The notes: generated by a model from the letters alone, not told the origin. A DNA stretch of 51,549 bases from Dehalococcoidia bacterium (GCA_021160725.1 JAGHCA010000044.1:1-51549), one strand, 5' to 3'. Positions 13,193 to 34,449 are shown, numbered from the stretch's first letter. Numbers and translations are program-made.

Positions 13193-14311
13193 ATGAGGAA
13201 GCTGGAGATTCAACGGGAACAAGCGTTGCAGGCGCGGCAAGAGTTCAAATTGATCATGCGACTGGAACAGGCTGGTTTGCTGGAAATGCCCGAAGAGGAG
13301 TTTAACAGGCTTACCACCGAAGTAGAAAGCAGCCCCTTATTTAGAAAGTTATATCGGAAGGATGGAATAATTCATTATCAGAGGTATCCTAAGACAGACT
13401 TTTCTCCTCGCTTTTATCAACTTAATGAAGAGATTGTTGCTGGGACAGACACTCTTGATATCGACTCTCTTTTATCTAACAAAGGAGATGTAATTCGTCT
13501 GATAAAGAAAATAGGGCTGGATAATTTTAAGCGCTATTTTCTTTATCCTGAACCCAGGGTAAGCATAGAAGAGGTCACTCAAGAGTGCAATTTGGAGCTT
13601 GCAGAGGTTGAAAGGATAGATAGCCTCATTAACGAATTCTCCATTATGAGCGAGTTTTACAACCCTTCTGTTCTGAGTTCGGAACATGGAATTCACTACT
13701 CCAAGGTCGCTTCGATAGAAAGGGGGGCTGAGGGTTTTATTATCAGCTATATCTCTCCGCCTTATGCGCGGGGAAGATATTCGATTGACTATGCGAGATT
13801 TGAGGAATTGAGGCAGAGTGGAGTTATCACCAAGGCTGAGGTAAAGGAAATCAGACAGCTATTTAAGAAGCTAGAGCTAATCAATAGACGTAAGGACACG
13901 GTTACTCGGATATTGCAAGGAATTGTGGAAAAGCAAGCACCCTATTTCGAATCCGGTAACGGCAAGGCTATCCTGCCGTTTAGCCAAAAAGAGCTAGCTG
14001 AAAGGATTGGGCTTGCTCCAAGCTCAATTAGCCGCGCTATTAGCGGTAAAAGCCTTGAGATGCCATGGGGCGAAGAGAAGGCCCTTAAGGATTTCTTTCC
14101 TCGGCCGAGAAGGTTTCGGAAGGAACTGGTCAGGCAGCTTCTTGAAACAGGGGAAGAATTCCCCTCTGATGAAGCGATTAAAGCCGAACTTGAACAGAAA
14201 TTTGGCGTTTCTATTTCCCGCCGTCTAGTAGCAAGCTTGAGGAAGGAATTAAAAATACCCGCAGCTTGGAAAAGGGGAAGACAGCCCTCTAAGAAAGCAA
14301 AAGGAGGATAA
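13193..14311 (+). CDS. short, divergent sigma-54 (RpoN)-like factor
   Basis: 372 aa. Region-I-like N-terminus (LEIQREQALQARQEFKLIMRLEQAGLLEMPEEEF..EVESSPLF). HTH segment SQKELAERIGLAPSSISRAISGKSLEMPWG..LKDFF. RpoN-box-like FGVSISRRLVASLRKELKIP. About 100 aa shorter than typical RpoN. Confidence 0.6.
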   Translation: MRKLEIQREQALQARQEFKLIMRLEQAGLLEMPEEEFNRLTTEVESSPLFRKLYRKDGIIHYQRYPKTDFSPRFYQLNEEIVAGTDTLDIDSLLSNKGDVIRLIKKIGLDNFKRYFLYPEPRVSIEEVTQECNLELAEVERIDSLINEFSIMSEFYNPSVLSSEHGIHYSKVASIERGAEGFIISYISPPYARGRYSIDYARFEELRQSGVITKAEVKEIRQLFKKLELINRRKDTVTRILQGIVEKQAPYFESGNGKAILPFSQKELAERIGLAPSSISRAISGKSLEMPWGEEKALKDFFPRPRRFRKELVRQLLETGEEFPSDEAIKAELEQKFGVSISRRLVASLRKELKIPAAWKRGRQPSKKAKGG

Positions 14312-14313
14312 TA

Positions 14314-16260
14314 ATGGGCATTATCTTTACAGTGACGGAGAAGTGTAAGGGGTGCTATGCCTGTGTTCGCAACTGCCCGGTCAAGGCTATTAGAGTGAAG
14401 GAAGGGATAGCCGGAGTTATGGAGGAGAGGTGTGTTACCTGTGGCGTCTGTATCAACATATGCGCTATAGGGGCCAGAGAGGCTAAGAGCGACATAGGTT
14501 ATGTTCGCCAGCTATTGGGGCAATCCACTCCGGTAATCGCTGCCCTTTCCTCCGCCTTTACGGCAGCTTTTCCAGAAATCAGGCCGAAGCAGTTAGTATC
14601 TGCTTTGAAGAAGCTGGGGTTCAGTGAGGTAATGGAAACTGCCTTTGGTGCTGAGCTGGTCTGCCGCGAGTATGGACGAATGGTAAAGGGAAACAAAGGA
14701 AAGCCCATTCTTTCCTCTACCTGTCCTGCTGTAACTTCCCTGGTGGAAAAACACTATCCTCAGCTAATCGATAGACTGGCACCAATTGTGTCGCCCATGA
14801 TCGCCATGGGCAGGGTCATTAAATGGCGGTACAATCCTGAGGCTAAAGTAGTCTTCATTGGCCCCTGTATAGCTAAAAAAGCTGAAGCAGAGGATGAGAA
14901 AGTTGCCGGGGTCATTGACGCTGTTCTGACCTTTTCCGAGCTGAGGGAGATGTTGGCGACAAAGGAAATCGACCTCCTTTCTGAGGAGGAAGAGCAGTTC
15001 TCTGGCCCCAGGCCTCATCTCGGTCGCCTGTTCCCTGTGCCCGGGGCTTCACTTAAGCTAGCGGGAATCTCTGGTGATACCATGATAAGCGATGTCGTTG
15101 TAGCTGAGGGCATTGATCGTGCTAGCAGTTGCCTTCTGGAATTTGCTCAAGGCAAGGTCAAAACCAAGTTTATGGACATATTCTTCTGCCGGGGTTGTAT
15201 TGACGGACCAGCGATAAATAAGAGCCTAAGCCTTTGTGGACGTAGGGAAAAAATAGTTGATTATGCTTTGGAGGATGCAGATCCGGCTCGAACGGAGAGC
15301 GACATCGAGCAATATGCTGACATTGACCTCAGCCGCAAATTTACCAATCGATATACTGTGCTACGCACCCCGACCGAAGATGAGATCAACGACATCCTGA
15401 GACAAATCGGTAAGCTAAAAAGAGAAGATCAACTCAACTGTGGAGCCTGTGGATATAATTCCTGTCGAGAGCTGGCTACTGCCGTCTGTCAAGGTTTAGC
15501 AGAGCGTGAGATGTGCTGGCCTTATCTGGTCAACGAATTACAGAATACACAGGATGAACTCCTCAGGGCTGAGAAGTTAACCTCGCTGGGCCAGTTGGCT
15601 GCCTCCATTGCTCACGAAATCAATAATCCTCTGACTGGTGTACTGGTCTATACCCAGTTGCTATCAAAGAAAGTGGCTGGTGATGCTTTTAAGAGAGAAC
15701 AAGCCTTGGAGTATCTTTCCAAGATGGAATCCGAGGTAGGTCGTTGCTCCAGGATAATCCGAAATCTTTTAGATTTTGCTCGGCAAACTGAGCCAATGTT
15801 GAGGTTGGTGGATGTTAACCGGGTTATAGAACAGGTATTGGCTATGGTAGGGCATCAAGCTCAACTTCAAAACGTTGAGATTGTGAAAGAGTTTAGCCCA
15901 TCCTTGCCTAAGGTCATAGCTGATTTCGACCAGCTTCAACAGGTATTTACTAATCTCACGCTGAATGCTATCCAGGCGATGTCTGAAGGGGGTAAGCTGA
16001 CTCTGCGCACGTCCGTGGAGAATAGTCAAGTTAGGGTTGATGTCCAGGATACAGGTTGTGGTATTTCAAAAGATAACTTGAGTAAGCTTTTCACTCCTTT
16101 CTTCACCACCAAGGCAAAAGGCAAGGGTGTAGGGTTGGGATTAGCTGTAGTTCACGGGATTATTGAGAGGCACAAGGGAGTAATCAAAGTGCAAAGTGAG
16201 GTGGGGAAAGGAACCACCTTCACCGTCTATTTGGGAGGCCACAACGATGAAAAAGGTTAA
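14314..16260 (+). CDS. sensor histidine kinase with 2x[4Fe-4S] ferredoxin, [FeFe]-hydrogenase-like domain and CxxCGxxxC Fe-S domain as input
   Basis: N-terminal CKGCYACVRNCP and CVTCGVCINIC. Hydrogenase H-domain-like motifs SSTCPAV, GPCIAKKAE and FFCRGCIDGP. Also NCGACGYNSCRELATAVC. H-box SIAHEINNPL and HATPase_c (DTGCGI..GKGVGLGL). The RBS lies inside the end of the preceding gene. Confidence 0.85.
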   Translation: MGIIFTVTEKCKGCYACVRNCPVKAIRVKEGIAGVMEERCVTCGVCINICAIGAREAKSDIGYVRQLLGQSTPVIAALSSAFTAAFPEIRPKQLVSALKKLGFSEVMETAFGAELVCREYGRMVKGNKGKPILSSTCPAVTSLVEKHYPQLIDRLAPIVSPMIAMGRVIKWRYNPEAKVVFIGPCIAKKAEAEDEKVAGVIDAVLTFSELREMLATKEIDLLSEEEEQFSGPRPHLGRLFPVPGASLKLAGISGDTMISDVVVAEGIDRASSCLLEFAQGKVKTKFMDIFFCRGCIDGPAINKSLSLCGRREKIVDYALEDADPARTESDIEQYADIDLSRKFTNRYTVLRTPTEDEINDILRQIGKLKREDQLNCGACGYNSCRELATAVCQGLAEREMCWPYLVNELQNTQDELLRAEKLTSLGQLAASIAHEINNPLTGVLVYTQLLSKKVAGDAFKREQALEYLSKMESEVGRCSRIIRNLLDFARQTEPMLRLVDVNRVIEQVLAMVGHQAQLQNVEIVKEFSPSLPKVIADFDQLQQVFTNLTLNAIQAMSEGGKLTLRTSVENSQVRVDVQDTGCGISKDNLSKLFTPFFTTKAKGKGVGLGLAVVHGIIERHKGVIKVQSEVGKGTTFTVYLGGHNDEKG

Positions 16261-17602
16261 AATACTAGTGGTTGATGATGAGGCTATTGTCCGCGAGTCG
16301 CTAAGCGAATGGCTCAAGGATGTTGGCTATCAGGTTTTCGCCGCTGAAAGTGGCCCCAAGGCATTAGAGGTGATTGGGAAGGAAAAGCCGGGCATCATGA
16401 TTGCCGATCTGGTTATGCCGGGTATGGACGGTATTGAATTGATGAAAAGGGCTAAAGAGCTTCATCCTAGGATAGAGGTTATTATTATCACAGCCTATGC
16501 TAGCATCCCTACCGCCATCGCTGCTATAAAAGAAGGGGCATACGATTATATTGAAAAGCCCTTTTGCCCTGAGAGAGCCGAATTCCTCGTCGAAAAATTA
16601 GCTGAACATCAGGAACTCGTCGAGGAAAACCTCGCCCTGCGTCATAGATTGGAAGACCGTTACCGCTTTGAGAACATCATTGCTAAGAGCTCCAAGATGC
16701 AGCGGCTGATTGAGTTGATAAAGGTTGTGGGCAAAAGCAACGCCACAGTATTAATCACAGGTGAAAGCGGCACAGGGAAGGAGTTAGTAGCACGTGCCAT
16801 TCATTCTCAGAGCCATCGTCGGAACAAGCCCTTTGTCGCTGTTAGTTGTGCTGCTTTGCCGGAAAGCCTTTTGGAAAGCGAACTGTTTGGCCACGAGAGG
16901 GGTTCCTTCACCGGCGCCTACACTCGGAAGAAGGGCAAATTCGAGTTTGCCAGTGGGGGGACTCTTTTTTTGGATGAAATCGGCGAGATGAGTGCCAATA
17001 TCCAAGTACACCTGTTAAGGGTTTTAGAAGAGAAAGAATTTACTCGCGTCGGTGGCAATGAGCCACTCAGAGTTGATGTAAGAGTTATTTCCGCGACTAA
17101 TAAGGACTTAAGAAAGGCCATAGAAAAGCAAGAATTCCGAGAAGACCTTTATTATCGCCTTAATGTAGTTAACATCGAATTGCCACCCTTGAGGGAAAGG
17201 AAGGAGGATATCCCTCTCTTGGCTGAGCATTTCTTGAATAAGTTTGCTTCGGAGAATCGGAAAGAGATTACCGGATTCTCTACCGATACTGTAGAATTTC
17301 TGCTCGATTATGACTGGCCGGGCAATGTCCGTGAGTTGGAAAATGCCATTGAAAGGGCGGTCATCCTGGCTAAGGATAGCATTATCACCATTGCTGACCT
17401 GCCTCAGAAGAAGATATCGCCTGCTTATTCAACTGCGCAGAGGAAAAATCTTAAAGAAGTAGAAAAAGAGCACATCTTGAATATCCTCCGTGAAACCGGC
17501 GAGAACTACAGTCAGGCAGCTAGAATCTTGGGAATTAGCAGGATGACGCTTTACAAAAAGGCAAGGGAATATGATTTAAGTGTAAAGAAAATTAAACAGT
17601 GA
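16247..17602 (+). CDS. sigma-54-dependent response regulator (NtrC family)
   Basis: REC (MKKVKILVVDDE..DLVMPGMDG), AAA+ sigma-54 activator core (GESGTGKE, ESELFGHERGSFTGA, the latter spanning the GAFTGA-type loop) and a C-terminal Fis-type HTH. Start placed at ATG 16247 behind GGGAGG, not at 16196. Confidence 0.9.
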   Translation: MKKVKILVVDDEAIVRESLSEWLKDVGYQVFAAESGPKALEVIGKEKPGIMIADLVMPGMDGIELMKRAKELHPRIEVIIITAYASIPTAIAAIKEGAYDYIEKPFCPERAEFLVEKLAEHQELVEENLALRHRLEDRYRFENIIAKSSKMQRLIELIKVVGKSNATVLITGESGTGKELVARAIHSQSHRRNKPFVAVSCAALPESLLESELFGHERGSFTGAYTRKKGKFEFASGGTLFLDEIGEMSANIQVHLLRVLEEKEFTRVGGNEPLRVDVRVISATNKDLRKAIEKQEFREDLYYRLNVVNIELPPLRERKEDIPLLAEHFLNKFASENRKEITGFSTDTVEFLLDYDWPGNVRELENAIERAVILAKDSIITIADLPQKKISPAYSTAQRKNLKEVEKEHILNILRETGENYSQAARILGISRMTLYKKAREYDLSVKKIKQ

Positions 17603-19023: not shown

Positions 19024-20172
19024 GTGAAAACAATAAGTCCTTATAAAGAAGCTACGGATGTAATACTTGAGGCGGGCGGTGAGCCTCTTAAATTGTGTTA
19101 TCAGTGTGGCCTTTGCACTGCTGTTTGTCCCTGGAACGTAGTGCGCAGTTTCTTGGTTCGCCGCATCATGCATGAAGCTCAGCTTGGGGTAACTGATTTT
19201 GACAGCGAGGATGTCTGGACTTGTGCCACTTGTCGAGCTTGTGTCCAGCGTTGCCCTCGGGGCGTTGAGATAATAGATGTCGTGAGGGCTGTACGTCGAG
19301 TTGTGGCTAGTCTCGGCATTGGTGTTGTCCCTGATGCTCTTCGGATATCAGCTAAGAACATCGCCGGCGTAGGTAATCCCTTTGGTGAAGCGCCAGAAAA
19401 GCGTAATGACTGGGCTAAAGATCTGGGGGTGAAGGAGTTCGTCCCGGGTACTGAAATACTTTATTTCCCTTGCTGTGTTCCCTCCTATGATCCTGATGTG
19501 AAAACAGTAGCTCGATCTGTTGCCACGATCTTCAATAAGCTGGGGGTTGATTATGGCCTGATAAGCACAGAGGCAAGATGCTGTGGCGAGTCAATTAGGA
19601 AGGCTGGGCATGAAGACACTTTTCAAAACCTGGCTCACAATAATATTAACCTCTTTGCCAATAATGATGTCAAAACTGTGGTAGTTTCCTCCCCACACTG
19701 CTACCATACTTTCAGAAATGAGTATCCCGAGCTTGGAGGCAAATTCGAAGTAATTCATATTACCCAATACTTAGCTTCACTTATCGACGAAGGAAAATTG
19801 AAGTTCTCTAAGACGATGAATAAAAAGGTAATCTATTCTGATCCTTGCTATTTGGGGAGGCATAACAATGTCTATGACGAACCTAGAAAGATATTGCAGA
19901 GTATTCCCGGCCTGGAATTAATAGAATTTCCCGATGCCCGCGAGAATGCTCTTTGTTGTGGTGGTGGCGGCGGTAGAATCTGGATGGATACACCGAAAGG
20001 GGAAAGGTTCTCTGATATAAGGGTAGAGCAAGCTGTAGAGAAAGGCGCTGATATTATAGCCTTGGCGTGTCCTTACTGCTTCCTCAACTACAGGGATAGC
20101 GTGCTATCTATGGGCAAGGCAGAGACTATGCAGGTTAGAGATATCGCTGAGCTTGTTGCTGAAGCAGTGTAA
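19024..20172 (+). CDS. HdrD-like fused HdrC/HdrB protein (2x[4Fe-4S] + two CCG domains)
   Basis: 382 aa. Carries CYQCGLCTAVCP and CATCRACVQRCP, then CCG-domain motifs (PCCVPS, ARCCGES, DPCYLGRH, ALCCGGGGG, ACPYC). GTG start with a weak RBS. Confidence 0.85.
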   Translation: MKTISPYKEATDVILEAGGEPLKLCYQCGLCTAVCPWNVVRSFLVRRIMHEAQLGVTDFDSEDVWTCATCRACVQRCPRGVEIIDVVRAVRRVVASLGIGVVPDALRISAKNIAGVGNPFGEAPEKRNDWAKDLGVKEFVPGTEILYFPCCVPSYDPDVKTVARSVATIFNKLGVDYGLISTEARCCGESIRKAGHEDTFQNLAHNNINLFANNDVKTVVVSSPHCYHTFRNEYPELGGKFEVIHITQYLASLIDEGKLKFSKTMNKKVIYSDPCYLGRHNNVYDEPRKILQSIPGLELIEFPDARENALCCGGGGGRIWMDTPKGERFSDIRVEQAVEKGADIIALACPYCFLNYRDSVLSMGKAETMQVRDIAELVAEAV

Positions 20173-20188: not shown

Positions 20189-23100
20189 ATGGAAGAGGTA
20201 AAAATTGGTGTTTATGTCTGCTGGTGCGGCTTAAATATCGCTGGCACAGTGGATTCTGAAGAGGTGGCCAGGTATGCTGGAACCCTGCCCCATGTGGCGG
20301 TTGCCCGTGACTATAAGTATATGTGCTCCGATCCTGGACAGGATCTCATTAAGAATGATATTAAGAGGTTGGGGATTAATCGAGTTGTGGTTGCTTCCTG
20401 CTCACCGAGATTGCATGAACCCACGTTTCGCAAAGCTTGCCGGGATGCCGGACTGAACCCATATCTATATGAGCACGCAAATATCAGGGAGCACTGCTCT
20501 TGGCCCCATGCCACAGACAAGAATCGAGCCACAGAAAAGGCCAAGGACCTTGTACGTGCTGCAGTAAGGCGTGTCTATTATCAAGAACCTCTGGAGATTA
20601 AGGAGGTTCCGGTGAATCCCAATGTCTTGGTTGTGGGGGGTGGTATTGCTGGCATTCAAGCTGCTCTGGATATCGCTGATGGGGAGAAGAAAGTCTACAT
20701 GGTGGAACGGGACGCATCCATTGGTGGACATATGATTCAGCTTGATAGGACATTCCCCACTCTAGATTGCTCAGAGTGTATTCTCACTCCCAAGATGACC
20801 GATACTGGTCATCATCCTAACATCGAGTTAATGACCAACAGCGAAGTAGAGGAGGTTTCGGGGTATATCGGCAATTTCAATGTCAGGATCAGGAAAAAGC
20901 CCAGGTATGTCGATGTCGATAAATGTAACTCATGCGGTGAATGTGCCAAGGTGTGCCCTGTTGAAGTGCCCGATGAGTTTGAGATGGGCTTGAGTATGAG
21001 GAAAGCAGCATATTTACCTCTTCCTCAGGCTGTTCCCGCCGCTTTTGCCATTGACAAAAGAGGCACTGCGCCCTGCCGCATTGCTTGCCCCGCCGGTGTT
21101 AATGCTCAGGGCTACATCGCCCTTATTTCCCAGGGCAAGTTCAAGGAGGCTCTTGAGTTAGTGAGGAGAGCTATGCCATTTGCTGGAGTCCTGGGGCGTG
21201 TTTGTACTCATCCCTGTGAACTCGAATGCGAGCGAGGGAAGTTTGATGAACCCGTCAGCATCCGTGCTTTGAAACGCTTTATAGCTGACTATGAGTTGAA
21301 GACAGAGAGAGAGAAGGTGGTTCCCATTGAGACAACAAAAGATAGCAAGGTGGCTGTTATCGGTTCTGGCCCTGCCGGTCTTGCCTGTGCTTATGATTTG
21401 ATTAGAGAGGGTTATGCTGTTACCGTATTTGAGTCTCTGCCTCGGGCAGGCGGACTGCTTAGATATGGTATCCCTGAGTATAGGTTGCCCAAGGAGGTAC
21501 TTGATAACGACATAAGTTATATACAGGAATTAGGAGTAGAGATTAAAACGAAGTCACCAGTGGAGGATCTTGCCGAGGTTTTCAATCAGGGATATGCGGC
21601 CATCTTTATTGCCAGCGGTGCCCAAGGAAGCCAGAAAATGGGCATACCCGGTGAAGAAACGAGCGGTGTAATTCATGCCCTTGATTTTCTAAGAATGGTT
21701 AATGCTGGAGTGGACATCAAGTTAGGCAATAAAGTAGTGGTTGTCGGCGGTGGTAATGCTGCCATAGATGCTGCTAGGGCATCTTTACGACTTGGAGCCA
21801 GGGAAGTTACTGTTGTTTATCGCCGCTCTCGTGACGAAATGCCTGCTATAAGCAGCGAAGTTGAGGAAGCGGAGCATGAAGGAATTAAAATCCATTTTCT
21901 GGCCACACCCACCAAAATCCTGTCCAGAGATGGCCAATTGTCGGCTATAGAATGTATCACGATGAAGCTGGGTGAACCAGATGCCAGCGGTCGCCGTCGT
22001 CCTGTAGCTGTCAAGGGGACGGAATTCACCATGAATGTTGACAATGTCATCATTGCAATCGGTCAAACTGTGGACAAGACGGCACTGCCGAAGGAGCTTA
22101 ATTACACTAGTTGGGGCACACTGGAGGTTGATCCCGTCACCTTGCAAACCCATATTGCTGGTGTGTTCGCTGGCGGCGACGTAGTTTCTGGACCGGCTGA
22201 TGTCGTGGTAGCGGTTGCCGCTGGCAAGGAAGCAGCTATTTCCATTGATCGGTATCTAAGAGGAGTCAGTCTAACCGAGGAAAGGCAGGTAACACCGAAA
22301 CGTGTGGAAAACGTATCAAAGGAAAGAGCCCAGCTAAAAGCGAGAGCTTCTACCCCGCTGCTTAAGCTTGATGAAAGGAAAGGCTCCTTCGCTGAGGTTG
22401 AACTAAGCTTTGATGAAAAGACGGCAATTGAGGAGGCCAAACGCTGTCTGAACTGTGGCGTATGCTCGGAATGTTTGGAATGCGTGAAGGTCTGTGAGCA
22501 AGGGGCAATTAATCATGAAATGCAAGATGAGTTCGTTGAGGTCGAGGTAGGCTCGATGATTCTAGCTACTGGCTACCAGCAGTTTGACCCCAGTGTCATA
22601 CCTCAGTATGGATATAAGAAGTTCGATAATGTCCTGACCGGACTTGAATTCGAAAGGATAACCTGTGCAGGAGGGCCAACTCAAGGACGGATTCAACTCA
22701 AGGATGGTAGAGAACCGGAGAGTGTAGCCATAGTGCATTGTGTGGGCAGCCGGGACCAGAACTACCATGAGTATTGCTCTAGAGTATGCTGCATGTATGG
22801 ACTCAAATATGCCGAATTGATAAAAGAGTTTACCAAAGCAGAGGTATATGAATTTTATATTGACATGAGATGTTTTGGTGAGGCTTTTGAGGAATTCTAT
22901 AAACGTGTTTCCGAGATGGGAGTCAATTTCATCCGAGGAAAGGTGGCTAACATTACCGACCGGGTGATGGGCGAAGAGGAGAGGGGGAAATTAATTGTCA
23001 CAGCAGAGGATACGTTACTGGGAAAGATGATACGTGTCCCTGTGGATATGGTTATCCTGTGTGCGGCCCTAGAGGCACGCTCTGACGCGGCTGATGTGGC

Positions 23101-23554
23101 GAGCCTTTTTACCATAGGCCAAAGAGGAGACGGCTTCTTCTTGGAAACCCATCCTAAGCTTGCTCCAGTAAACACGCCAACAGATGGAGTTTTCATTGCT
23201 GGGTGCTGCGAAGCACCAAGAGACGTCCCTGATACTGTGGCGCAGGCTTCGGCAGCAGCATCCAAGGCTTTGTCATTGATAAGTAGAGGCAAGGTAACCA
23301 CTGAAGCAGCTGTGTCGTATGTGGATGAATCTATTTGCCATGGATGTGGCCGCTGCGAGGAAATCTGTACTTTTCATGCCCCCTCGATTATCAGAACGGA
23401 TGGACGCTTGGTTTCTAGCATAAACGAAGCTCTCTGTAAGGGATGTGGAGCATGCGCTGTTGTGTGTCCTACAGGGGCAGCACAAATCAAGCACTTCAAT
23501 ATGCAGGAAATAGAGGGTCTGGTCGACGGCTTGCTGGAGGTGCACCGTGGCTGA
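20189..23554 (+). CDS. HdrA-type flavoprotein with inserted GltD/NfnB-like NAD(P)H-flavin module
   Basis: 1121 aa from ATG 20189. The HdrA N-domain (VYVCWCGLNIAG), FAD motif VVGGGIAGIQAAL, DCSECILTPKM, CVGSRD..YCSRVCCMY and the C-terminal 2x[4Fe-4S] are collinear with the paralogue at 29946. Between them sits a GltD-like block (CPAGVNAQGY..GRVCTHPCELEC, VIGSGPAGLACA, VVGGGNAAIDAAR..VYRRS). Confidence 0.85.
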   Translation: MEEVKIGVYVCWCGLNIAGTVDSEEVARYAGTLPHVAVARDYKYMCSDPGQDLIKNDIKRLGINRVVVASCSPRLHEPTFRKACRDAGLNPYLYEHANIREHCSWPHATDKNRATEKAKDLVRAAVRRVYYQEPLEIKEVPVNPNVLVVGGGIAGIQAALDIADGEKKVYMVERDASIGGHMIQLDRTFPTLDCSECILTPKMTDTGHHPNIELMTNSEVEEVSGYIGNFNVRIRKKPRYVDVDKCNSCGECAKVCPVEVPDEFEMGLSMRKAAYLPLPQAVPAAFAIDKRGTAPCRIACPAGVNAQGYIALISQGKFKEALELVRRAMPFAGVLGRVCTHPCELECERGKFDEPVSIRALKRFIADYELKTEREKVVPIETTKDSKVAVIGSGPAGLACAYDLIREGYAVTVFESLPRAGGLLRYGIPEYRLPKEVLDNDISYIQELGVEIKTKSPVEDLAEVFNQGYAAIFIASGAQGSQKMGIPGEETSGVIHALDFLRMVNAGVDIKLGNKVVVVGGGNAAIDAARASLRLGAREVTVVYRRSRDEMPAISSEVEEAEHEGIKIHFLATPTKILSRDGQLSAIECITMKLGEPDASGRRRPVAVKGTEFTMNVDNVIIAIGQTVDKTALPKELNYTSWGTLEVDPVTLQTHIAGVFAGGDVVSGPADVVVAVAAGKEAAISIDRYLRGVSLTEERQVTPKRVENVSKERAQLKARASTPLLKLDERKGSFAEVELSFDEKTAIEEAKRCLNCGVCSECLECVKVCEQGAINHEMQDEFVEVEVGSMILATGYQQFDPSVIPQYGYKKFDNVLTGLEFERITCAGGPTQGRIQLKDGREPESVAIVHCVGSRDQNYHEYCSRVCCMYGLKYAELIKEFTKAEVYEFYIDMRCFGEAFEEFYKRVSEMGVNFIRGKVANITDRVMGEEERGKLIVTAEDTLLGKMIRVPVDMVILCAALEARSDAADVASLFTIGQRGDGFFLETHPKLAPVNTPTDGVFIAGCCEAPRDVPDTVAQASAAASKALSLISRGKVTTEAAVSYVDESICHGCGRCEEICTFHAPSIIRTDGRLVSSINEALCKGCGACAVVCPTGAAQIKHFNMQEIEGLVDGLLEVHRG
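21062..22440 (+). other. GltD/NfnB-like insertion within the HdrA hybrid
   Basis: Boundaries come from aligning the protein by eye with the uninterrupted paralogue (29946..31934). Collinearity is lost after ..AIDKRG and resumes around ..EEAKRCLNCGVC. Confidence 0.7.
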
Positions 23555-23990
23555 GTTTGAGCCTAAGATTATCGTTTTTGCATGTAACTGGTGTACCTAT
23601 GCCGCAGCCGATCTAGCCGGAACGAGCCGAGTTCAATATCCTCCTAATGCCTATATCGTCAGGATGATGTGCAGCGGGATGATAAATCCCAGCTATGTTC
23701 TTAGAGCCTTTGAAGATGGTGCAGACGGAGTTATAGTCTCTGGATGTCATTACACTGATTGCCATTACATCGATGGACCGGTAAAGTGCGATGCCATGTT
23801 TGCCAAGCTAAAGAGGTTAGTACATATTCTTGGCTTGGAGGACGAGAGGCTAAAGCGCGAGATGATATCTACCTCCGAGGGAACAGTATTTGCTAGAGTG
23901 GTTAGGGAGTTCGTAAGCGAGCTTAAGAGGCTAGGGCCTTCGCCTTTTTCATCTTTAAGAAATTCAAGAAAGGAGAAGGCAGTGGCTTGA
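23547..23990 (+). CDS. mvhD: MvhD (methyl-viologen-reducing hydrogenase delta subunit/FlpD family)
   Basis: 147 aa. Carries FACNWCTYAAADLAG, MCSG and GCHYTDCHY. GTG start in an 8-nt overlap (GTGGCTGA) with the hdrA stop. Confidence 0.9.
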   Translation: MAEFEPKIIVFACNWCTYAAADLAGTSRVQYPPNAYIVRMMCSGMINPSYVLRAFEDGADGVIVSGCHYTDCHYIDGPVKCDAMFAKLKRLVHILGLEDERLKREMISTSEGTVFARVVREFVSELKRLGPSPFSSLRNSRKEKAVA

Positions 23991-25153
23991 GTTTAGAGGA
24001 CATTATTCAAGAGACGAAAACCTATTACTGTCTGGAATGTGGCAAATGTACAAGTATATGTCCTGTCGCCAGATATGACCCAGCATTCTCTCCTCGGGCG
24101 ATGATTGAGAATGCTCTATTGGGACCTGAAGATGACTTGGTATTCAACCGAGAACTTTTTTCCTGCTTAACTTGTTACACTTGTCAACAGAGATGTCCCA
24201 GTGATGTCGATTTTCCTGTATTTGTGCGCAAAGCCCGCACCATAGCCCAAGATAATGGACAGCACGGAATTTGTGCCCACTCGGGGCAGTTGCAATCTCT
24301 GGCCAGGCTTATGACTAGCCCCGACATTAAGCAAAGGAGATTGGAATGGCTATCTGATAAATACCGCACCTCCGATGACTCCGATGTTCTTCTCTGGGTG
24401 GGGTGTGCTCCATATTTTGAAGCCATCTTTGAGGATATTGAGTTTAGAGCTCTTGATATCACTGAGGCCAGCTTGAAAATCTTGAATCTTCTGGGAATAG
24501 AGCCCAAGCTGCTTCCAGATGAGAAATGCTGTGGGCATGATGTGGTTTGGACTGGGGATGTAGAGACATTTAAGAAACTAGCCGAGCATAATGCGACCCA
24601 AATAAAAGAATCCGGGGTGCAGAAAATAATCTTCTCCTGCCCTGAAGGCTACCGAACATTGAAGCTGGATTATCCAAACTATGGCTTTGATGTTGGTTGT
24701 GAGTTACAACATATCTCTGAATTCTTGGCGGACAGAATCGAAAAGGGCGGCGTGAAGTTTAATGAAGTGAAAAAAAGGGTAACTTATCAGGATCCATGTA
24801 GGTTGGGAAGGCATCTCGGTATATATGATGCCCCCAGAAAAGTACTTAAATCTATTCCTGGCATAGAATTTGTCGAGATGCAATATAGTGGATGGGATGC
24901 TATTTGCTGTGGCACCAGCGCCTGGACTAACTGCGACTCGTATTCCAATATGATACGGGCGGAAAGGTTATCTGAGGCAACTGCCACCAAGGCTGAGACA
25001 CTCATAACATGCTGCCCCAAATGTCAAACCCATTTCAGATGCGCCATGACAGATAAGGGAAAAGAAAAGCGGTCGATGCCAAGTATTGAAGTTATGGATT
25101 TAGCAAACCTGGTAGCAAATGCTATTGAGGAAGGGAGTAATCTTAGCAAGTAA
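23987..25153 (+). CDS. HdrC/HdrB-like fused Fe-S/CCG-domain protein
   Basis: 388 aa. Carries CLECGKCTSICP and CLTCYTCQQRCP, plus CCG-domain motifs (EKCCGHD, QDPCRLGRH, AICCGTSAW, CCPKC). TTG start overlaps the mvhD stop (TTGA). Confidence 0.85.
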   Translation: MSLEDIIQETKTYYCLECGKCTSICPVARYDPAFSPRAMIENALLGPEDDLVFNRELFSCLTCYTCQQRCPSDVDFPVFVRKARTIAQDNGQHGICAHSGQLQSLARLMTSPDIKQRRLEWLSDKYRTSDDSDVLLWVGCAPYFEAIFEDIEFRALDITEASLKILNLLGIEPKLLPDEKCCGHDVVWTGDVETFKKLAEHNATQIKESGVQKIIFSCPEGYRTLKLDYPNYGFDVGCELQHISEFLADRIEKGGVKFNEVKKRVTYQDPCRLGRHLGIYDAPRKVLKSIPGIEFVEMQYSGWDAICCGTSAWTNCDSYSNMIRAERLSEATATKAETLITCCPKCQTHFRCAMTDKGKEKRSMPSIEVMDLANLVANAIEEGSNLSK

Positions 25154-25155: not shown

Positions 25156-27915
25156 ATGAGCAACAGGGAAAACGGACAGAAATCGGTGCTAGTAATTGGT
25201 GGTGGCATAGCGGGGATCCAGGCTTCGCTGGATCTAGCGAATATGGGCTTTAAGGTATATTTGGTGGAAAAATTGCCCAGCATCGGGGGAAGGATGGCGC
25301 AACTGGATAAGACTTTCCCTACTAATGATTGTGCCATGTGTATTTTGGCACCTAAGATGATTGAAGCGAGTACACATAATAACATAGAGCTTTTAACTTA
25401 TTGTGAAGTAGAAAAAGTTTCCGGGGAAGCAGGGAAATTTGAGGTCAAGGTAAAGAAAAAGTCATCTTTTGTCGATTGGGACAAATGTACAGGGTGCGGC
25501 CTCTGTATCGAAGGCTGCCCTGTCATTCTGCCAAATGAATTCGATCAAGGGATAGGAAAAAGAAAAGCTATATACATGCTATTTCCTCAGGCTGTTCCCA
25601 AGAAATGTGTTATAGACAAAAGGGAAGACCGCCCCTGTAAAGCGGCTTGCATGGATGCCTGTCCAGTTCATACTAACGTACCTGGGTACATCAAACTCGT
25701 TGCTGAAGGAGAGTTCAAAGAGGCTTATAAGCTTATAAGGGAGACAACCCCCCTGCCTGCATGTGTTGGCCGAGTATGCTATGCACCTTGTCAGGATGTC
25801 TGTAATCGCGGTGAAATAGATGAACCATTGTGTATCCGCGACATTAAGCGAGTTCCCTCGGATCAATGGAGTATCGAGGAACTTGAAGTACCGCCAATTA
25901 CAAAGACGGATAAAAAGGTAGCAGTTATAGGCTCGGGACCTGCAGGTCTTGCCGCTGCCAATGACCTTGCTCTAAAAGGGCACAGTGTGACTATCTTTGA
26001 GGCTCTTCCTGAACCCGGAGGTATGCTTCGCGTTGGCATACCGGAATATCGACTTCCCAAGGAAATTTTACGCCAGGAGATAGGCTACATTCAGAAACTT
26101 GGCGTGGAGGTAAAAACGGGCATTCGAGTCGGTAAAGATATCACCCTCGAAAAATTAAAAAAAGACTACGATGCCGTTTTCATTGCTATTGGGACACACG
26201 GTGGCATGAAGCTTGGGGTAGAGGGTGAAGATATTCCCGGAGTAATGGAGGGGATAGGATTTCTCCGCGCTGTAAATCTCGGGGAAAAGATAGATGTTGG
26301 AAATAGGGTAGCAGTGATTGGCGGAGGTAATACAGCTATAGATTGTGCCCGCACAGCAAAGCGCCTGGGAGCAAAAGAGGTGACCATTGTTTACCGCCGT
26401 TCTCGCGCTGAGATGCCAGCTTCCGCGGAGGAAGTGACAGCAGCCGAAGAAGAGGACATAAAGATCGAGTTTCTGACTATTCCAAGCCGCTTCTCTTCTG
26501 AGAATAAAAAGCTTGCCAAGATGGAATGTGTACGCATGAAGCTCGGGGAACCAGATGCCAGCGGGCGCCCTCGACCTATTCCCATTGAGGGTTCTGAATT
26601 TATTATTTCGGTGGATACAGTGATCACTGCATTGGGGCAGACTCCAGAAGCAGATTTTGTTAAACAGTCAGGAGTTTCGCTTTCCAAGAAGGGCACGATA
26701 GAAATTGATGCCAAGACTGGGGTGACCAGTGTTGAAGGAGTATTTGCTGGAGGTGATGTAGTTACAGGACCTGCTTTCGTGATTGATGCCATAGCGGCTG
26801 GGAAAAAGGCTGCTCGCTCTATGGATCAGTATTTGAATGGACAACCTCTTGAGCCAGAGGAAGAATGGAAGGAACCAGAGAAGCTGTCCCAGAAAGAGAT
26901 AGAGGATCTGAAGAAACGCTTTCCTTCCAGAAATAGAGTGGGGATGAGGAGGGAGCCAGCTAAGAAAAGAATCCAGGACTTTCGTGAGGTTGCTCTGGGG
27001 TATTCCTTAGAGGAAGCCTTAGAGGAAGCTTCACGCTGTTTGGCGGGACAAACAGAAGGGTGTATAGAATGCCATGAATGTGAACGACGATGCGAGCCAA
27101 AAGCAATAGTGTATACGAAGAAGGATGAAAGCATCGAGCTAAAGGTAGGCGCGATAATAGTTGCTTCAGGGCTTGGTTTATATGATATTTCAGCGCTACC
27201 AGAATATGGCTATGGCAAAATAAAAAACGTGATTAGCGCTATGGAATTTGAGAGATTGACTGCAGCATCTGGGCCTACTATGGGAGAACTCAGGCGTCCT
27301 TCGGATGGCAAGATACCTGAGAATATAGCTTTTATCCAATGTGTCGGCTCCCGCGATTTCAGGCATAAAGCTTATTGCTCCAGTGTCTGCTGTATGCATT
27401 CAACTAAGGAGGCAATGCTGGCTTTCGAACATCATCCGGGAACAAGATCCTTCATCTTCTACATGGATATGAGGGCTGTGGGCAAAAGATTTCAGGAATA
27501 TATTGCCAGGGCTAAGCAAGAATACAATGTCACTTATATCAGGAGTCGTCCCGGGAGGATTGAAGTTAATCCTGATAACGACAATCCTATTATCTGGTAT
27601 GAGGAAACCTCCAGTGGAGAAGTAAAGAAATTTGAGGTAGAGTTGGTAGTTCTTGCTCAAGCCATGATTCCTCAAATCACCCGGGAGTTGGCAGAAATAC
27701 TAGAAATAGAGTTAGACGAAGATGGCTTTGTGAGGACTGCAGATAGATTTCTGCAACCGCTGGACACTACAAAGCCAGGCATTTTTACCTGTGGCTATGT
27801 CCATAGCCCGCGGGACATCCCAGATTCGGTGACCCAGGCCTCTGGGGCAGCAGGCAGAGTAGCTGAAGAGATTGCTTCATCCCGATTGAATCGGGACTCG
27901 CAAGGAGGTAACTGA
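25156..27915 (+). CDS. HdrA-GltD hybrid lacking the HdrA N-terminal and C-terminal ferredoxin domains
   Basis: 919 aa. Starts directly at the FAD motif (VLVIGGGIAGIQASL). Has NDCAMCILAPKM and CTGCGLCIEGCP, a GltD block (CPVHTNVPGY..GRVCYAPCQDVC, VIGSGPAGLAAA, VIGGGNTAIDCAR..VYRRS), then CVGSRD..YCSSVCCMH. Ends after ..PRDIPDSVTQASGAAG. Confidence 0.85.
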   Translation: MSNRENGQKSVLVIGGGIAGIQASLDLANMGFKVYLVEKLPSIGGRMAQLDKTFPTNDCAMCILAPKMIEASTHNNIELLTYCEVEKVSGEAGKFEVKVKKKSSFVDWDKCTGCGLCIEGCPVILPNEFDQGIGKRKAIYMLFPQAVPKKCVIDKREDRPCKAACMDACPVHTNVPGYIKLVAEGEFKEAYKLIRETTPLPACVGRVCYAPCQDVCNRGEIDEPLCIRDIKRVPSDQWSIEELEVPPITKTDKKVAVIGSGPAGLAAANDLALKGHSVTIFEALPEPGGMLRVGIPEYRLPKEILRQEIGYIQKLGVEVKTGIRVGKDITLEKLKKDYDAVFIAIGTHGGMKLGVEGEDIPGVMEGIGFLRAVNLGEKIDVGNRVAVIGGGNTAIDCARTAKRLGAKEVTIVYRRSRAEMPASAEEVTAAEEEDIKIEFLTIPSRFSSENKKLAKMECVRMKLGEPDASGRPRPIPIEGSEFIISVDTVITALGQTPEADFVKQSGVSLSKKGTIEIDAKTGVTSVEGVFAGGDVVTGPAFVIDAIAAGKKAARSMDQYLNGQPLEPEEEWKEPEKLSQKEIEDLKKRFPSRNRVGMRREPAKKRIQDFREVALGYSLEEALEEASRCLAGQTEGCIECHECERRCEPKAIVYTKKDESIELKVGAIIVASGLGLYDISALPEYGYGKIKNVISAMEFERLTAASGPTMGELRRPSDGKIPENIAFIQCVGSRDFRHKAYCSSVCCMHSTKEAMLAFEHHPGTRSFIFYMDMRAVGKRFQEYIARAKQEYNVTYIRSRPGRIEVNPDNDNPIIWYEETSSGEVKKFEVELVVLAQAMIPQITRELAEILEIELDEDGFVRTADRFLQPLDTTKPGIFTCGYVHSPRDIPDSVTQASGAAGRVAEEIASSRLNRDSQGGN
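25624..27040 (+). other. GltD/NfnB-like insertion within the second HdrA hybrid
   Basis: Same position and motif order as the insertion at 21062-22440. Confidence 0.7.
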
Positions 27916-27916
27916 G

Positions 27917-34447: not shown

Positions 34448-34449
34448 AA

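What the first reader, a model, noticed from the sequence alone, without database searches (positions are those of the whole stretch)
20189..23554. HdrA with a ~460-aa GltD/NfnB-like module inserted at the inserted-ferredoxin position
The window contains its own control. The 1121-aa protein is collinear with the ordinary HdrA at 29946-31934 at both ends. At the N-terminal end, compare VYVCWCGLNIAGTVD..SCSPRLHEPTFRKAC..NIREHCSW with VYICHCGLNIAGTVD..SCSPRMHELTFRKAC..NIREHCSW. At the C-terminal end, compare ILATGYQQFDPSVIPQYGY..CVGSRDQNYHEYCSRVCCMY..CKGCGACAVVCPTGA with the equivalent stretch of the paralogue.

Between ..AIDKRG and ..CLNCGVCSECLECVKVC, the second half of the inserted ferredoxin is replaced. 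In its place is a complete GltD-like unit with its own FAD/NAD(P)H dinucleotide motifs. This puts a second flavin/pyridine-nucleotide site inside the bifurcating HdrA scaffold, that is, two bifurcation-type flavoprotein architectures in one polypeptide.

I recall large HdrA-like proteins with an extra pyridine-nucleotide domain being annotated as HdrL in some sulfate-reducer genomes, but I cannot verify that here. I know of no biochemical or structural characterisation.
Basis: partly seen in the sequence, partly recalled or inferred. Interest (0 to 1): 0.8.

Follow-up and report, generated by a model that had tools for sequence, protein, structure and literature searches.

The report
HdrL: HdrA with built-in NAD(P)H module

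Summary
ORF 20189..23554 encodes a 1121-aa protein that is a complete HdrA. A 467-aa GltD-type module (aa 292-758) sits exactly between the two CxxCxxCxxxC motifs of the inserted ferredoxin domain. It is not a misassembly: the same architecture occurs on many independent contigs, in at least 52 clusters at 50% identity, and in at least 80 species genomes of bacteria and archaea.

- No half of the ferredoxin domain is replaced. Both motifs are kept.
- The module is not NfnB-type. It is the circularly permuted Stn/Nfn-Bfu type, has Lys where bifurcating NfnB has its Glu cluster ligand, and never sits next to an NfnA gene.

The architecture is already published as HdrL of sulfate reducers (2009), ANME-1 HdrA9-11 (2022) and Moorella thermoacetica HdrA. 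The Moorella protein has the two-HdrA form, which the window also carries as two adjacent genes, and it oxidises NADH.

Most likely mechanism: the module is a pyridine-nucleotide port hard-wired onto the Fe-S arm that normally serves free ferredoxin. The HdrA flavin would be the only bifurcating site, working with the adjacent MvhD and HdrCB-like proteins. The direction of electron flow and the thiol/disulfide substrate are unknown.

The parts
20189..23554 (+). hdrL: 1121-aa HdrA with an inserted GltD-type module. Predicted cofactors: 2 FAD and 8 [4Fe-4S].
   Evidence: AF2 model: mean pLDDT 90.4, pTM 0.77.
20189..20593 (+). HdrA N-terminal Fe-S domain (aa 1-135)
   Evidence: Gap-free alignment to 5odc_A residues 1-291.
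20606..20896 (+). First part of the thioredoxin-reductase-like FAD domain. It carries GxGxxG at aa 150-155 and the FPTLDC194SEC197 motif (Cys197 equivalent).
20924..20956 (+). Inserted-ferredoxin motif 1: C246-x2-C249-x2-C252-x3-C256-P
   Evidence: Invariant in 28 diverse hybrids.
21062..22462 (+). The insertion, aa 292-758: a circularly permuted GltD/Stn-type module
   Evidence: It lies between 5odc_A residues 291 and 293. It is collinear with 9bov_A 102-575 and 8oh5_C 92-575. Foldseek gives rmsd 2.0 A over 474 columns to 9bov_A.
21065..21304 (+). Fe-S subdomain of the module. Contains C296, C300, C339, C343 and C347, and K362 at the position of the proximal-cluster ligand.
   Evidence: Matches Fer4_20 profile positions 29-111 only. 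The Cys residues are invariant, and position 362 is K in 25 of 28 sequences.
21347..21388 (+). FAD dinucleotide motif of the module (KVAVIGSGPAGLAC)
21731..21832 (+). NAD(P)H dinucleotide motif (VVVVGGGNAAIDAA) and the VVYRRS beta-2 end
22343..22456 (+). Permuted segment, aa 719-756. It is equivalent to the N-terminal helix plus the C1-x2-C2 (C753, C756) of canonical GltD/NfnB.
   Evidence: 37% identical to window NfnB aa 11-48. Alone it matches Fer4_20 positions 2-28. Re-ordering it in silico restores a single 2-111 match of 100.5 bits.
22463..22495 (+). Inserted-ferredoxin motif 2: C759-x2-C762-x2-C765-x3-C769. It follows the module's C756 after only two residues.
   Evidence: Aligns with C293/296/299/303 of 5odc_A. 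Invariant or nearly invariant.
22496..23293 (+). Second part of the thioredoxin-reductase-like domain, with E822 and K873. These are the equivalents of E356 and K409 of M. thermolithotrophicus HdrA.
   Evidence: PMC9430772 reports the E/K pair as the signature of bifurcating HdrA flavins.
23294..23488 (+). C-terminal ferredoxin domain (C1050/1053/1056/1060 and C1083/1086/1089/1093)
19024..20172 (+). HdrCB-fusion (HdrD-like) protein: 4Fe-4S dicluster plus two CCG domains. Its stop is 16 nt before the hdrL start.
   Evidence: A CCG protein lies next to the hybrid in 51 of 61 loci.
23547..23990 (+). mvhD (FlpD domain). Its start overlaps the hdrL stop by 8 nt.
   Evidence: MvhD lies next to the hybrid in 43 of 61 loci.
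23987..25153 (+). Second HdrCB-fusion (HdrD-like) protein
25156..29596 (+). Split 'long HdrL': a 919-aa HdrA with the same GltD insertion but without the N-terminal domain and C-terminal ferredoxin, followed by a 559-aa HdrA without the inserted ferredoxin and without Cys197.

Best explanation
The gene encodes an HdrL-type heterodisulfide-reductase A subunit.

Shown:
- A full HdrA is present: N-terminal cluster domain, FAD domain with the E822/K873 signature, Cys197, both ferredoxin domains.
- It carries a circularly permuted Stn/Nfn-Bfu-type GltD module (two [4Fe-4S], FAD, NAD(P)H site) spliced between the two cysteine motifs of the inserted ferredoxin domain.
- Because of the permutation, both ends of the module lie at its distal cluster. 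Its last two ligands, C753 and C756, are followed two residues later by the four ligands of the ferredoxin motif.

Inferred wiring: one continuous Fe-S wire runs from the HdrA FAD through the N-terminal cluster and the two inserted-ferredoxin clusters to the module's distal and proximal clusters, then to the module's FAD and NAD(P)(H). The pyridine-nucleotide site therefore occupies the end of the arm that delivers low-potential electrons to free ferredoxin in methanogen HdrA.

Inferred function: the module's flavin is a two-electron/one-electron converter, as in StnC, NfnA of Nfn-Bfu and glutamate synthase GltD. It is not a second bifurcating flavin; the HdrA FAD is the only bifurcation or confurcation site. 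With the translationally coupled MvhD and HdrCB-like CCG proteins, the enzyme would couple NAD(P)H/NAD(P)+ to a thiol/disulfide couple and to a third partner that docks through MvhD.

Direction is not resolved. The one characterised relative, Moorella MetFV-HdrABC-MvhD, oxidises NADH. Operons of the type hdrCB-hdrL-mvhDGA suggest H2-driven NAD(P)+ reduction in place of ferredoxin reduction.
For: - Insertion point and retained motifs.
- Permutation.
- Conserved ligands in 28 diverse hybrids: C246/249/252/256, C296/300/339/343/347 and C753/762/765/769 are invariant; C756, C759 and K873 are at least 90% conserved.
- AF2 confidence is mostly above 90 around both junctions (281-310: 93/90/93; 721-770: 91-96). 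It dips to 73-85 in the linker at aa 691-720.
- The module's nearest solved relatives are the NADPH-input modules of Nfn-ABC and StnC. Their FAD is described as a non-bifurcating shuttle (PMC10482914; PMC12018979).
- Position 362 is Lys like StnC K170, whereas NfnB/NfnL and the window's own NfnB have Glu there.
- The inserted ferredoxin domain is the ferredoxin-output arm (PMC9012536; PMC9430772).
- Neighbourhoods of 61 species-genome loci: CCG protein in 51, MvhD in 43, MvhA in 7, MetF in 10, NfnA in 0.
- Acididesulfobacillus acetoxydans has hdrC-hdrB-hdrL-mvhD-mvhG-mvhA.
- M. thermoacetica HdrA, which has the GltD domain, shows NADH:BV activity of 190 U/mg. S. ovata HdrA, which lacks it, shows 0.5 U/mg.
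- The same permuted module is plugged into unrelated scaffolds: a RACo protein, a DHODH-like protein, a CCG protein and the window's NuoF.
Against: - No cofactor-containing structure or coordinates were available, so cluster-to-cluster distances are inferred from sequence adjacency only.
- Lys versus Glu at one ligand position is a correlate of bifurcation, not proof. The conserved Arg of the PEYRLP motif, which contacts flavin N5 in NfnB, is also present.
- The direction of electron flow, NADH versus NADPH preference and the disulfide substrate are all unknown. The YRR motif does not discriminate.
- Some Dehalococcoidales loci show no MvhD within 8 kb.
Confidence: 0.55

Rival explanations
1. 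Double bifurcation. The module's FAD is an NfnB-like bifurcating flavin, so one polypeptide holds two bifurcation sites joined head-to-head by their low-potential Fe-S arms. This is the first reader's view and was also suggested for ANME-1 HdrA9-11 by Chadwick et al. 2022.
For: - 40% identity and TM 0.81 to NfnB.
- The Arg of PEYRLP is conserved in 27 of 28 sequences.
- The clusters of the module correspond to NfnB's low-potential branch.
- The idea is published (PMC9012536).
Against: - The module is closer to the non-bifurcating Stn/Nfn-Bfu type (450 against 311 bits).
- It has Lys instead of the Glu ligand.
- Its topology is permuted.
- No NfnA-like [2Fe-2S]/FAD partner is encoded next to the hybrid in 0 of 61 loci. 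In the window, nfnA immediately precedes, and is presumably translationally coupled to, the canonical nfnB.
- No second exit path from the module's flavin is evident.
Confidence: 0.12
2. Linear, non-bifurcating NAD(P)H:disulfide oxidoreductase. Electrons run from NAD(P)H through the module and the inserted ferredoxin clusters to the HdrA FAD, then to the HdrCB-like CCG clusters and a disulfide. The HdrA flavin would be a mere relay and MvhD an accessory.
For: - NAD(P)H (-320 mV) to a disulfide is exergonic, so no coupling is needed.
- Non-bifurcating HdrA homologues exist (PMC9430772).
- CCG proteins are the most constant neighbours.
Against: - E822 and K873, the signature reported for bifurcating HdrA flavins, are conserved.
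- MvhD and the complete C-terminal ferredoxin domain, which form the third arm, are retained in most loci.
- Some operons add MvhAG or MetVF as a third redox partner.
Confidence: 0.18
3. Artefact: the long ORF is a chimeric assembly or a decaying fusion of an hdrA and a gltD-like gene.
For: None was found. The window comes from a metagenome-assembled genome.
Against: - The same 1121-aa protein is recorded on two contigs, and the near-identical P0002-P0004 on eight more.
- The junction peptide is found in at least 80 species genomes, including isolates.
- All cluster ligands on both sides of both junctions are conserved.
- The AF2 model is confident.
- HdrL was detected as a protein in S. fumaroxidans (PMC5947623).
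Confidence: 0.01

Closest known systems
HdrL of sulfate reducers (Desulfobacterium autotrophicum HdrL1-3, Strittmatter 2009; Syntrophobacter fumaroxidans Sfum_0824, Sedano-Nunez 2018)
   Same: A large HdrA-like protein fused with a glutamate-synthase-small-subunit-like NAD(P)H domain, followed by mvhD and found in hdr gene clusters. Locus L053, from an uncultured Syntrophobacter, has a full-length hybrid followed by MvhD, a 1.3-kb gap and further HdrA genes. This order is consistent with the published Sfum_0819-0824 cluster.
   Different: The window protein comes from a Dehalococcoidia MAG. It has Cys, not selenocysteine, at the positions examined. I did not align it directly to the named D. 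autotrophicum or S. fumaroxidans sequences.
ANME-1 HdrA9/10/11 (Chadwick et al. 2022, PMC9012536)
   Same: [quoted passage not shown] That is the same insertion site and the same kind of module.
   Different: Those proteins are archaeal and sit in a methane-oxidation context. The authors favour NfnB-like bifurcation; the evidence here favours a Stn-type shuttle flavin.
Moorella thermoacetica HdrA of MetFV-HdrABC-MvhD (Mock 2014; domain analysis in Rosenbaum 2022, PMC9430772)
   Same: [quoted passage not shown] NADH oxidation was measured on this HdrA. The window's 919-aa and 559-aa gene pair is the split equivalent, and L080 has the fused 1489-aa form next to mvhD-metV-metF.
   Different: The Moorella protein is the tandem two-HdrA form (162.8 kDa, 3 FAD). 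The finding is the single-HdrA form, which keeps the N-terminal domain and the C-terminal ferredoxin. No metVF lies next to the window gene. I could not obtain the Moorella sequence itself.
GltD module of StnC (8OH5) and of NfnA in Nfn-ABC/Nfn-Bfu (9BOV, 9N5U)
   Same: These are the best sequence and structure matches to the insert (389-452 bits; rmsd 2.0 A over 474 columns). They share the permuted order with the RCLxC segment at the C-terminal end, Lys at the StnC K170 position, and the YRR(S/T) motif.
   Different: There the module is fused to a NuoG-like Fe-S domain and feeds a NuoF/FMN bifurcating core. Here it is spliced into HdrA's inserted ferredoxin domain.
NfnB/NfnL of NfnAB (4YLF, 5JCA) and the window's own NfnB (34450..35871)
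   Same: The same GltD fold, FAD and NADPH motifs and two [4Fe-4S] clusters. Identity to the window NfnB is 40%.
   Different: NfnB has the canonical, unpermuted order, a Glu ligand on the proximal cluster, and an obligatory NfnA partner. None of these three holds for the insert.
Methanogen HdrA (5ODC, 8RVU, 7BKB)
   Same: All four HdrA domains and their ligands are present. The match is 741 bits in two pieces, and TM-score 0.83 normalised to HdrA.
   Different: The 467-aa insertion. The host is bacterial and has no known CoM-S-S-CoB. Scores fall below NCBIfam's HdrA equivalog cut-offs.

Membership tests
HdrA (heterodisulfide reductase subunit A fold) | N-terminal Fe-S domain, TrxR-like FAD domain, inserted ferredoxin with two Cys motifs, and C-terminal ferredoxin domain | tested here: met
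   Alignment to 5odc_A covers residues 1-291 and 293-649. Foldseek TM-score is 0.83 normalised to HdrA.
HdrA (heterodisulfide reductase subunit A fold) | Flavin-site Glu and Lys (E356/K409 of M. thermolithotrophicus), reported as the mark of bifurcating HdrA | tested here: met
   E822 and K873 occupy these positions. Among 28 hybrids, E is conserved in 24 and K in 26.
HdrA (heterodisulfide reductase subunit A fold) | Cys197 equivalent that completes the partner's N-terminal cluster | tested here: met
   FPTLDC194SEC197, with the same numbering as 5odc_A.
CoB-CoM heterodisulfide reductase HdrA (NCBIfam equivalogs NF040770, NF041778, NF041891) | Whole-protein score above the curated cut-off | tested here: not met
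   Scores are 841, 582 and 567 bits against cut-offs of 1100, 1400 and 1300, each match split into two stretches. It has the HdrA fold but should not be named a CoB-CoM reductase.
HdrL (Strittmatter 2009) | HdrA-like protein fused with a glutamate-synthase-type NAD(P)H-binding domain | tested here: met
   The definition is quoted.
HdrL (Strittmatter 2009) | Gene followed by mvhD | tested here: met
   mvhD at 23547..23990 overlaps the hdrL stop. In species genomes, 24 of 33 full-length-type loci have MvhD nearby.
HdrL (Strittmatter 2009) | Direct sequence relationship to D. autotrophicum HdrL1-3 | not tested
   Those sequences were not retrievable with the tools. Desulfobacterales homologues of 53-58% identity were found.
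Bifurcating NfnB/NfnL | Canonical Fer4_20 order (helix, C1xxC2, C3xxxC4P and so on) at the N-terminus | tested here: not met
   Only profile positions 29-111 match at aa 293-372. Positions 2-28 are found at aa 731-757.
Bifurcating NfnB/NfnL | Glu ligand of the proximal [4Fe-4S] cluster | tested here: not met
   Lys362 occupies this position. 4ylf_B, 5jca_L and the window NfnB all have Glu.
Bifurcating NfnB/NfnL | NfnA partner ([2Fe-2S] plus FAD) encoded alongside | tested here: not met
   0 of 61 hybrid loci have one. The window's nfnA directly precedes the canonical nfnB.
Bifurcating NfnB/NfnL | FAD and NADPH dinucleotide motifs, and the Arg of PE(F/Y)RLP | tested here: met
Stn/Nfn-Bfu-type GltD module (NCBIfam PRK12771 subfamily) | Score above the curated cut-off | tested here: met
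   NF009410 scores 539.5 bits against a cut-off of 516. HdrL aa 290-790 match profile positions 44-545.
Stn/Nfn-Bfu-type GltD module (NCBIfam PRK12771 subfamily) | Permuted order with the RCLxC segment after the flavin domains, and Lys at the StnC K170 position | tested here: met
   Collinear with 9bov_A 102-575 and 8oh5_C 92-575. K362 is present.
Stn/Nfn-Bfu-type GltD module (NCBIfam PRK12771 subfamily) | Non-bifurcating shuttle behaviour of the FAD | not testable with these tools
   This needs redox titration or spectroscopy. It is inferred only from homology.

The most novel reading that the evidence does not exclude
The module's flavin bifurcates after all. In that case HdrL would contain two bifurcating flavins connected by a shared low-potential Fe-S wire. 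Low-potential electrons made at one flavin would be consumed at the other without ever leaving the protein as ferredoxin. This would be an internal 'ferredoxin-free' coupling of NAD(P)H, a disulfide and a third substrate.
Probability: 0.1. Interest if true: 0.8.

Novelty: already known. Interest (0 to 1): 0.3.

Why it matters
HdrL-type proteins are among the commonest uncharacterised redox modules of strict anaerobes, including sulfate reducers, syntrophs, acetogens, Dehalococcoidia, Asgard and Bathyarchaeia, and ANME. Their reaction is still unknown, apart from NADH oxidation by the Moorella enzyme.

The useful refinements here are threefold:
- The exact splice point of the module.
- The recognition that the module is the permuted, Lys-type Stn/Nfn-Bfu 'plug-in' rather than NfnB.
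- The finding that it sits where ferredoxin would dock.

Together these predict that such enzymes exchange ferredoxin for a pyridine nucleotide at the low-potential arm. The window itself adds no new kind of system.

Tried and rejected
- A 19-sequence junction alignment (A2) was too diverse for the genome scan. A 7-sequence version (A3) worked. Only the 80 listed loci can be claimed as junction-spanning. The other pattern used in that scan is generic to HdrA, so the count of 585 is not a count of hybrids.
- Mock 2014 (PMC4135698) and Appel 2021 (PMID 33460586) are not held. A search for 'Moth_1194' found nothing.
- I tried to find the Moorella HdrA sequence by homology search with the L080 1489-aa protein. 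The top 120 hits are Desulfotomaculia and MAG proteins, and none is named Moorella. The link to Moorella therefore rests on the domain description in PMC9430772.
- I considered calling NADPH specificity from the VVYRRS motif, which is shared with the NADPH-specific NfnB, StnC and NfnA. I rejected this because members of Moorella-type operons, whose characterised relative uses NADH, also carry YRR(T/S). About 10 of 28 homologues have C(L/I)E instead.
- I considered whether the aa 719-756 segment is a duplicated N-terminal motif rather than a permutation. I rejected this because the upstream end of the module lacks profile positions 1-28 entirely.

Full report
**1. Observation**

The ORF from ATG 20189 to the stop at 23554 is continuous and encodes 1121 aa. 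Residues 3-290 are 72% identical to residues 4-290 of the ordinary HdrA paralogue at 29946..31934, and residues 761-1121 are 59% identical to its residues 302-662. Residues 294-692 are 40% identical to residues 51-468 of the window's NfnB at 34450..35871 (E 2e-89).

Pfam finds Fer4_20 at aa 293-372 and Pyr_redox_2 at aa 387-679, on top of the HdrA ferredoxin and FAD signatures. Both dinucleotide motifs of the middle block are intact.

**2. Exact anatomy**

Against the solved HdrA of Methanothermococcus thermolithotrophicus (5odc_A), HdrL 1-291 aligns without gaps to 1-291, and HdrL 759-1115 aligns to 293-649. The insertion is aa 292-758 (467 aa, nt 21062..22462).

It lies between the two CxxCxxCxxxC motifs of the inserted ferredoxin domain, and both motifs are kept. 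Motif 1 is C246/249/252/256. Motif 2 is C759/762/765/769, which aligns with C293/296/299/303 of 5odc_A.

The rest of HdrA is complete:
- The N-terminal cluster domain.
- FPTLDC194SEC197, the Cys197 equivalent.
- E822 and K873, the equivalents of E356 and K409. PMC9430772 cites this pair as the signature of bifurcating HdrA flavins.
- The C-terminal two-cluster ferredoxin domain.

**3. The module is a permuted Stn/Nfn-Bfu-type GltD, not an NfnB**

- *Best matches.* In the PDB the best matches to the insert are the NADPH-input modules of Nfn-ABC from Caldicellulosiruptor (9bov_A, 452 bits with the insert alone as query), of Thermococcus NfnA (9n5u_A, 450 bits) and of Sporomusa StnC (8oh5_C, 389 bits). 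NfnL/NfnB score 315-318 bits. The insert also passes NCBIfam's curated cut-off for the PRK12771 subfamily (539.5 against 516 bits).
- *Permutation.* The alignment to 9bov_A and 8oh5_C is collinear over aa 293-766. It includes a C-terminal segment (aa 719-756...EEAKRCLNC) that in NfnB, GltD and DPD is the N-terminal helix with the first two cluster cysteines. BLAST matches this segment to window NfnB aa 11-48. I tested the permutation directly. The segment alone hits Pfam Fer4_20 positions 2-28, and aa 293-372 hit positions 29-111. Joining them in the canonical order in silico restores one match over positions 2-111 at 100.5 bits, against 87 bits in two pieces for the native order.
- *Proximal-cluster ligand.* Bifurcating NfnB/NfnL carry a Glu here (...GRLERFVADW, also in the window's NfnB). 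StnC has K170, and HdrL has K362 (...RALKRFIADY). Across 28 diverse hybrids this position is K in 25, H in 2 and E in 1. The Stn paper discusses exactly this Glu-to-Lys difference and assigns the StnC FAD a shuttle role (PMC10482914). The Nfn-ABC paper places bifurcation at the FMN/cluster site of the BC core, not at the NfnA FAD (PMC12018979).

**4. Proposed cluster map**

By homology to the canonical family the ligand sets are:
- Proximal cluster: C300, C339, C343, K362.
- Distal cluster: C296, C347, C753, C756.
- Inserted-ferredoxin clusters: C246/249/252 with C769, and C256 with C759/762/765.

These cysteines are invariant or at least 90% conserved in the 28-sequence alignment.

Because the module is permuted, both of its ends meet at its distal cluster. 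Its last ligand, C756, is separated by two residues from C759, the first ligand of ferredoxin motif 2. This forces the two clusters into proximity.

The AF2 model is confident (mean pLDDT 90.4, pTM 0.77). The blocks next to both junctions score 90-96, with a dip to 73-85 in the linker at aa 691-720. In Foldseek the model superposes on HdrA (TM 0.83 normalised to HdrA) and on the 9bov_A module (rmsd 2.0 A over 474 columns). No PDB chain covers both parts.

**5. Not an artefact, and not rare**

- The identical 1121-aa protein is recorded on two contigs, the near-identical P0002-P0004 on eight more, and more than 100 full-length relatives on other contigs. Source names place the window in a Dehalococcoidia/Chloroflexota MAG.
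- An exhaustive search of 50%-identity representatives gave 37,068 hits. Among the best 150, 52 are complete hybrids with the same insertion (12 with the N-terminal domain, 40 without), and about 29 more are truncated fragments consistent with it.
- A junction-spanning probe found matches covering nearly the whole junction probe (most from residue 1-4, the shortest from residue 14, to residue 120) in the maximum 80 listed species genomes. These include Dehalococcoidia, Anaerolineae, Desulfobacterales, Syntrophobacteraceae, Desulfomonile, Desulfobacca, the isolates Acididesulfobacillus acetoxydans and Desulfacinum hydrothermale, Thorarchaeota, Bathyarchaeia, Hydrothermarchaeales, Methanosarcinales, Actinomycetota, Pirellulales and Bacteroidota.

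**6. Three formats, two of them in this window**

The hybrids come in three formats:
- (a) About 1110-1150 aa: a full HdrA plus the module. This is the finding.
- (b) About 900-920 aa: no N-terminal domain and no C-terminal ferredoxin. The window gene at 25156..27915 is of this type and is 46% identical to the finding over 914 aa.
- (c) About 1480-1530 aa: format (b) fused to an HdrA that has the N-terminal domain and C-terminal ferredoxin but lacks the inserted ferredoxin and Cys197. The window has this second half as the separate 559-aa gene at 27917..29596.

The complementary loss of the N-terminal domain and Cys197 is the pattern Chadwick et al. describe for heterodimeric or tandem HdrAs.

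**7. Gene context**

In the window, the genes from 19024 to 29596 abut or overlap by a few bases. Their order is HdrCB-like, hdrL, mvhD, HdrCB-like, 919-aa hybrid, 559-aa HdrA. After a 350-nt gap come a canonical hdrA, an mvhD-hdrCB fusion, nfnA and nfnB. L002, another Dehalococcoidia MAG, has the same order.

Across 61 classifiable species-genome loci, a CCG (HdrB/HdrD-like) protein is nearby in 51, MvhD in 43, MvhA in 7, MetF in 10 and NfnA in none.

Three informative cases:
- Acididesulfobacillus acetoxydans has sigma-54 activator, hdrC, hdrB, hdrL, mvhD, mvhG, mvhA. This is a canonical Mvh/Hdr operon with HdrL in the place of HdrA.
- A Dehalococcoidales genome has hdrC, hdrB, hdrL and a MetF/MetV-like gene.
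- A Desulfocucumaceae genome has hdrCB, the 1489-aa hybrid, mvhD, metV and metF. This is the Moorella-type operon.

**8. What is already published**

- Strittmatter et al. [quoted passage not shown]
- Sedano-Nunez et al. 2018 detected HdrABC/HdrL of S. fumaroxidans in proteomes when sulfate was present and proposed confurcation towards DsrC (PMC5947623).
- Chadwick et al. [quoted passage not shown] They raised the same two-bifurcation-sites idea (PMC9012536).
- Rosenbaum et al. [quoted passage not shown] They predicted three FAD, eight [4Fe-4S] and one NAD(P)H site. They report NADH:benzyl viologen activity of 190 U/mg for that HdrA, against 0.5 U/mg for the S. ovata HdrA that lacks the GltD domain (PMC9430772).

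The architecture is therefore known, and for format (c) there is biochemical evidence that the module is the pyridine-nucleotide site. No solved structure of a hybrid exists.

**9. Mechanism**

*Shown:* the splice point, the permuted Stn-type identity of the module, the conserved ligands, the HdrA flavin signature and the conserved partners.

*From the literature:* in methanogen HdrA the inserted ferredoxin domain is the arm through which low-potential electrons leave for free ferredoxin. [quoted passage not shown]

*Inferred:* in HdrL the NAD(P)(H) site is hard-wired to the end of the ferredoxin arm. The module's FAD acts as a two-electron/one-electron converter, and the HdrA FAD remains the single bifurcating or confurcating site. 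I give this 0.55.

Direction is open:
- The Moorella relative oxidises NADH, so the port is an input there.
- In hdrCB-hdrL-mvhDGA operons the donor (H2) and the high-potential arm are already accounted for. This suggests NAD(P)+ reduction in place of ferredoxin reduction, which would make thermodynamic sense at low H2 pressure.

The disulfide substrate in a Dehalococcoidia bacterium is unknown. The NADH/NADPH preference cannot be read from the YRRS motif.

Rival explanations:
- A second bifurcating flavin: 0.12.
- A linear NAD(P)H:disulfide reductase: 0.18.
- An artefact: 0.01.

**10. A wider pattern**

The same permuted module, with the same boundaries (roughly HdrL aa 282/294 to 761/771), also occurs:
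- inside a RACo-type activator, between its middle and C-terminal domains;
- fused to a dihydroorotate-dehydrogenase-like domain;
- fused to a CCG domain;
- fused to NuoF, in the window gene at 39996..43085.

This fits the view that it is a portable NAD(P)H-to-Fe-S 'plug-in' whose adjacent termini make it easy to insert. It also argues for an input/output role rather than a specialised bifurcating one.

**11. Verdict**

The feature is a member of the already described HdrL / HdrA-GltD hybrid family. It remains an interesting family because its reaction is unsolved. However, this window does not reveal a new kind of system, and it does not make the open question more testable than the cultured carriers already do. 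Interest 0.3.

Noticed in passing
window 25156..27915 and 27917..29596 (+): A second HdrA/GltD hybrid (919 aa) lacks the N-terminal domain and the C-terminal ferredoxin but keeps Cys197. It is followed by a 559-aa HdrA with the opposite set of losses: no inserted ferredoxin, and FPTNQEA instead of the Cys197 motif. Together they equal the fused ~1480-1530-aa form found in Moorella-type hdrCBA-mvhD-metVF operons (L080).
   Followed up: yes
window 14314..16260 (+), with 13193..14311 and 16196..17602: A [FeFe]-hydrogenase large-subunit-like domain plus an Fe-S domain is fused directly to HisKA/HATPase_c, giving a putative H2-sensing histidine kinase. It is followed by a sigma-54-dependent response regulator and preceded by a 372-aa protein that has only the sigma-54 DNA-binding domain. 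The whole set lies just upstream of the hdr cluster. L022 also has a sigma-54 activator upstream of hdrCB-hdrL-mvhDGA.
   Followed up: partly
window 35989..43625 (-): A cluster of NuoE-like, NuoF fused to a GltD module whose Pfam Fer4_20 match also lacks the N-terminal profile positions (1029 aa), NuoG/formate-dehydrogenase-like (663 aa), MvhG-like and MvhA-like genes. It looks like a Bfu-type [NiFe] hydrogenase that carries an extra NAD(P)H module on its NuoF subunit.
   Followed up: partly
window 31927..33510 (+): MvhD is fused to an HdrCB-like (dicluster plus CCG) protein in one 527-aa polypeptide, directly after the canonical hdrA. It overlaps the hdrA stop by 8 nt.
   Followed up: no
window 33569..35871 (+): A canonical nfnA-nfnB pair closes the same-strand cluster. 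This NfnB is the only one of the four GltD-type modules in the window with a full-length canonical Fer4_20 match and a confirmed Glu cluster ligand.
   Followed up: yes
proteins P0249, P0205, P0230 (representatives): The same permuted GltD module occurs in other scaffolds: inserted between the middle and C-terminal domains of a RACo-type corrinoid activator, fused to a dihydroorotate-dehydrogenase-like domain, and fused to a CCG domain. It behaves as a portable NAD(P)H plug-in.
   Followed up: partly
window 25156..27915, aa ~145-160 and ~625-645: The 919-aa paralogue lacks the equivalent of C756 (RCLAGQTEGC...). Instead it has an extra Cys four residues before the third cluster cysteine (PCKAACMDACP). 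StnC has a similar extra Cys (DCRPPCMLACP) but keeps its second cysteine (RCLEC). This suggests an alternative ligand for the distal cluster.
   Followed up: no
alignment A1, HdrL positions 544-547: The end of the NAD(P)H beta-2 strand is YRR(S/T) in about two thirds of the hybrids and C(L/I)E in the rest. This suggests NADPH- and NADH-type subgroups, but members of Moorella-type operons also carry YRR, so the motif alone is not predictive.
   Followed up: partly
loci L005, L008, L009, L011, L015, L019 (Dehalococcoidales and a delta-proteobacterial MAG): Full-length hybrids with a CCG protein nearby but no MvhD detected within 8 kb. In L014, L016 and L021 a MetF/MetV-like gene follows hdrL directly. 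This points to a possible HdrL-linked methylene-THF reductase in Dehalococcoidales.
   Followed up: partly
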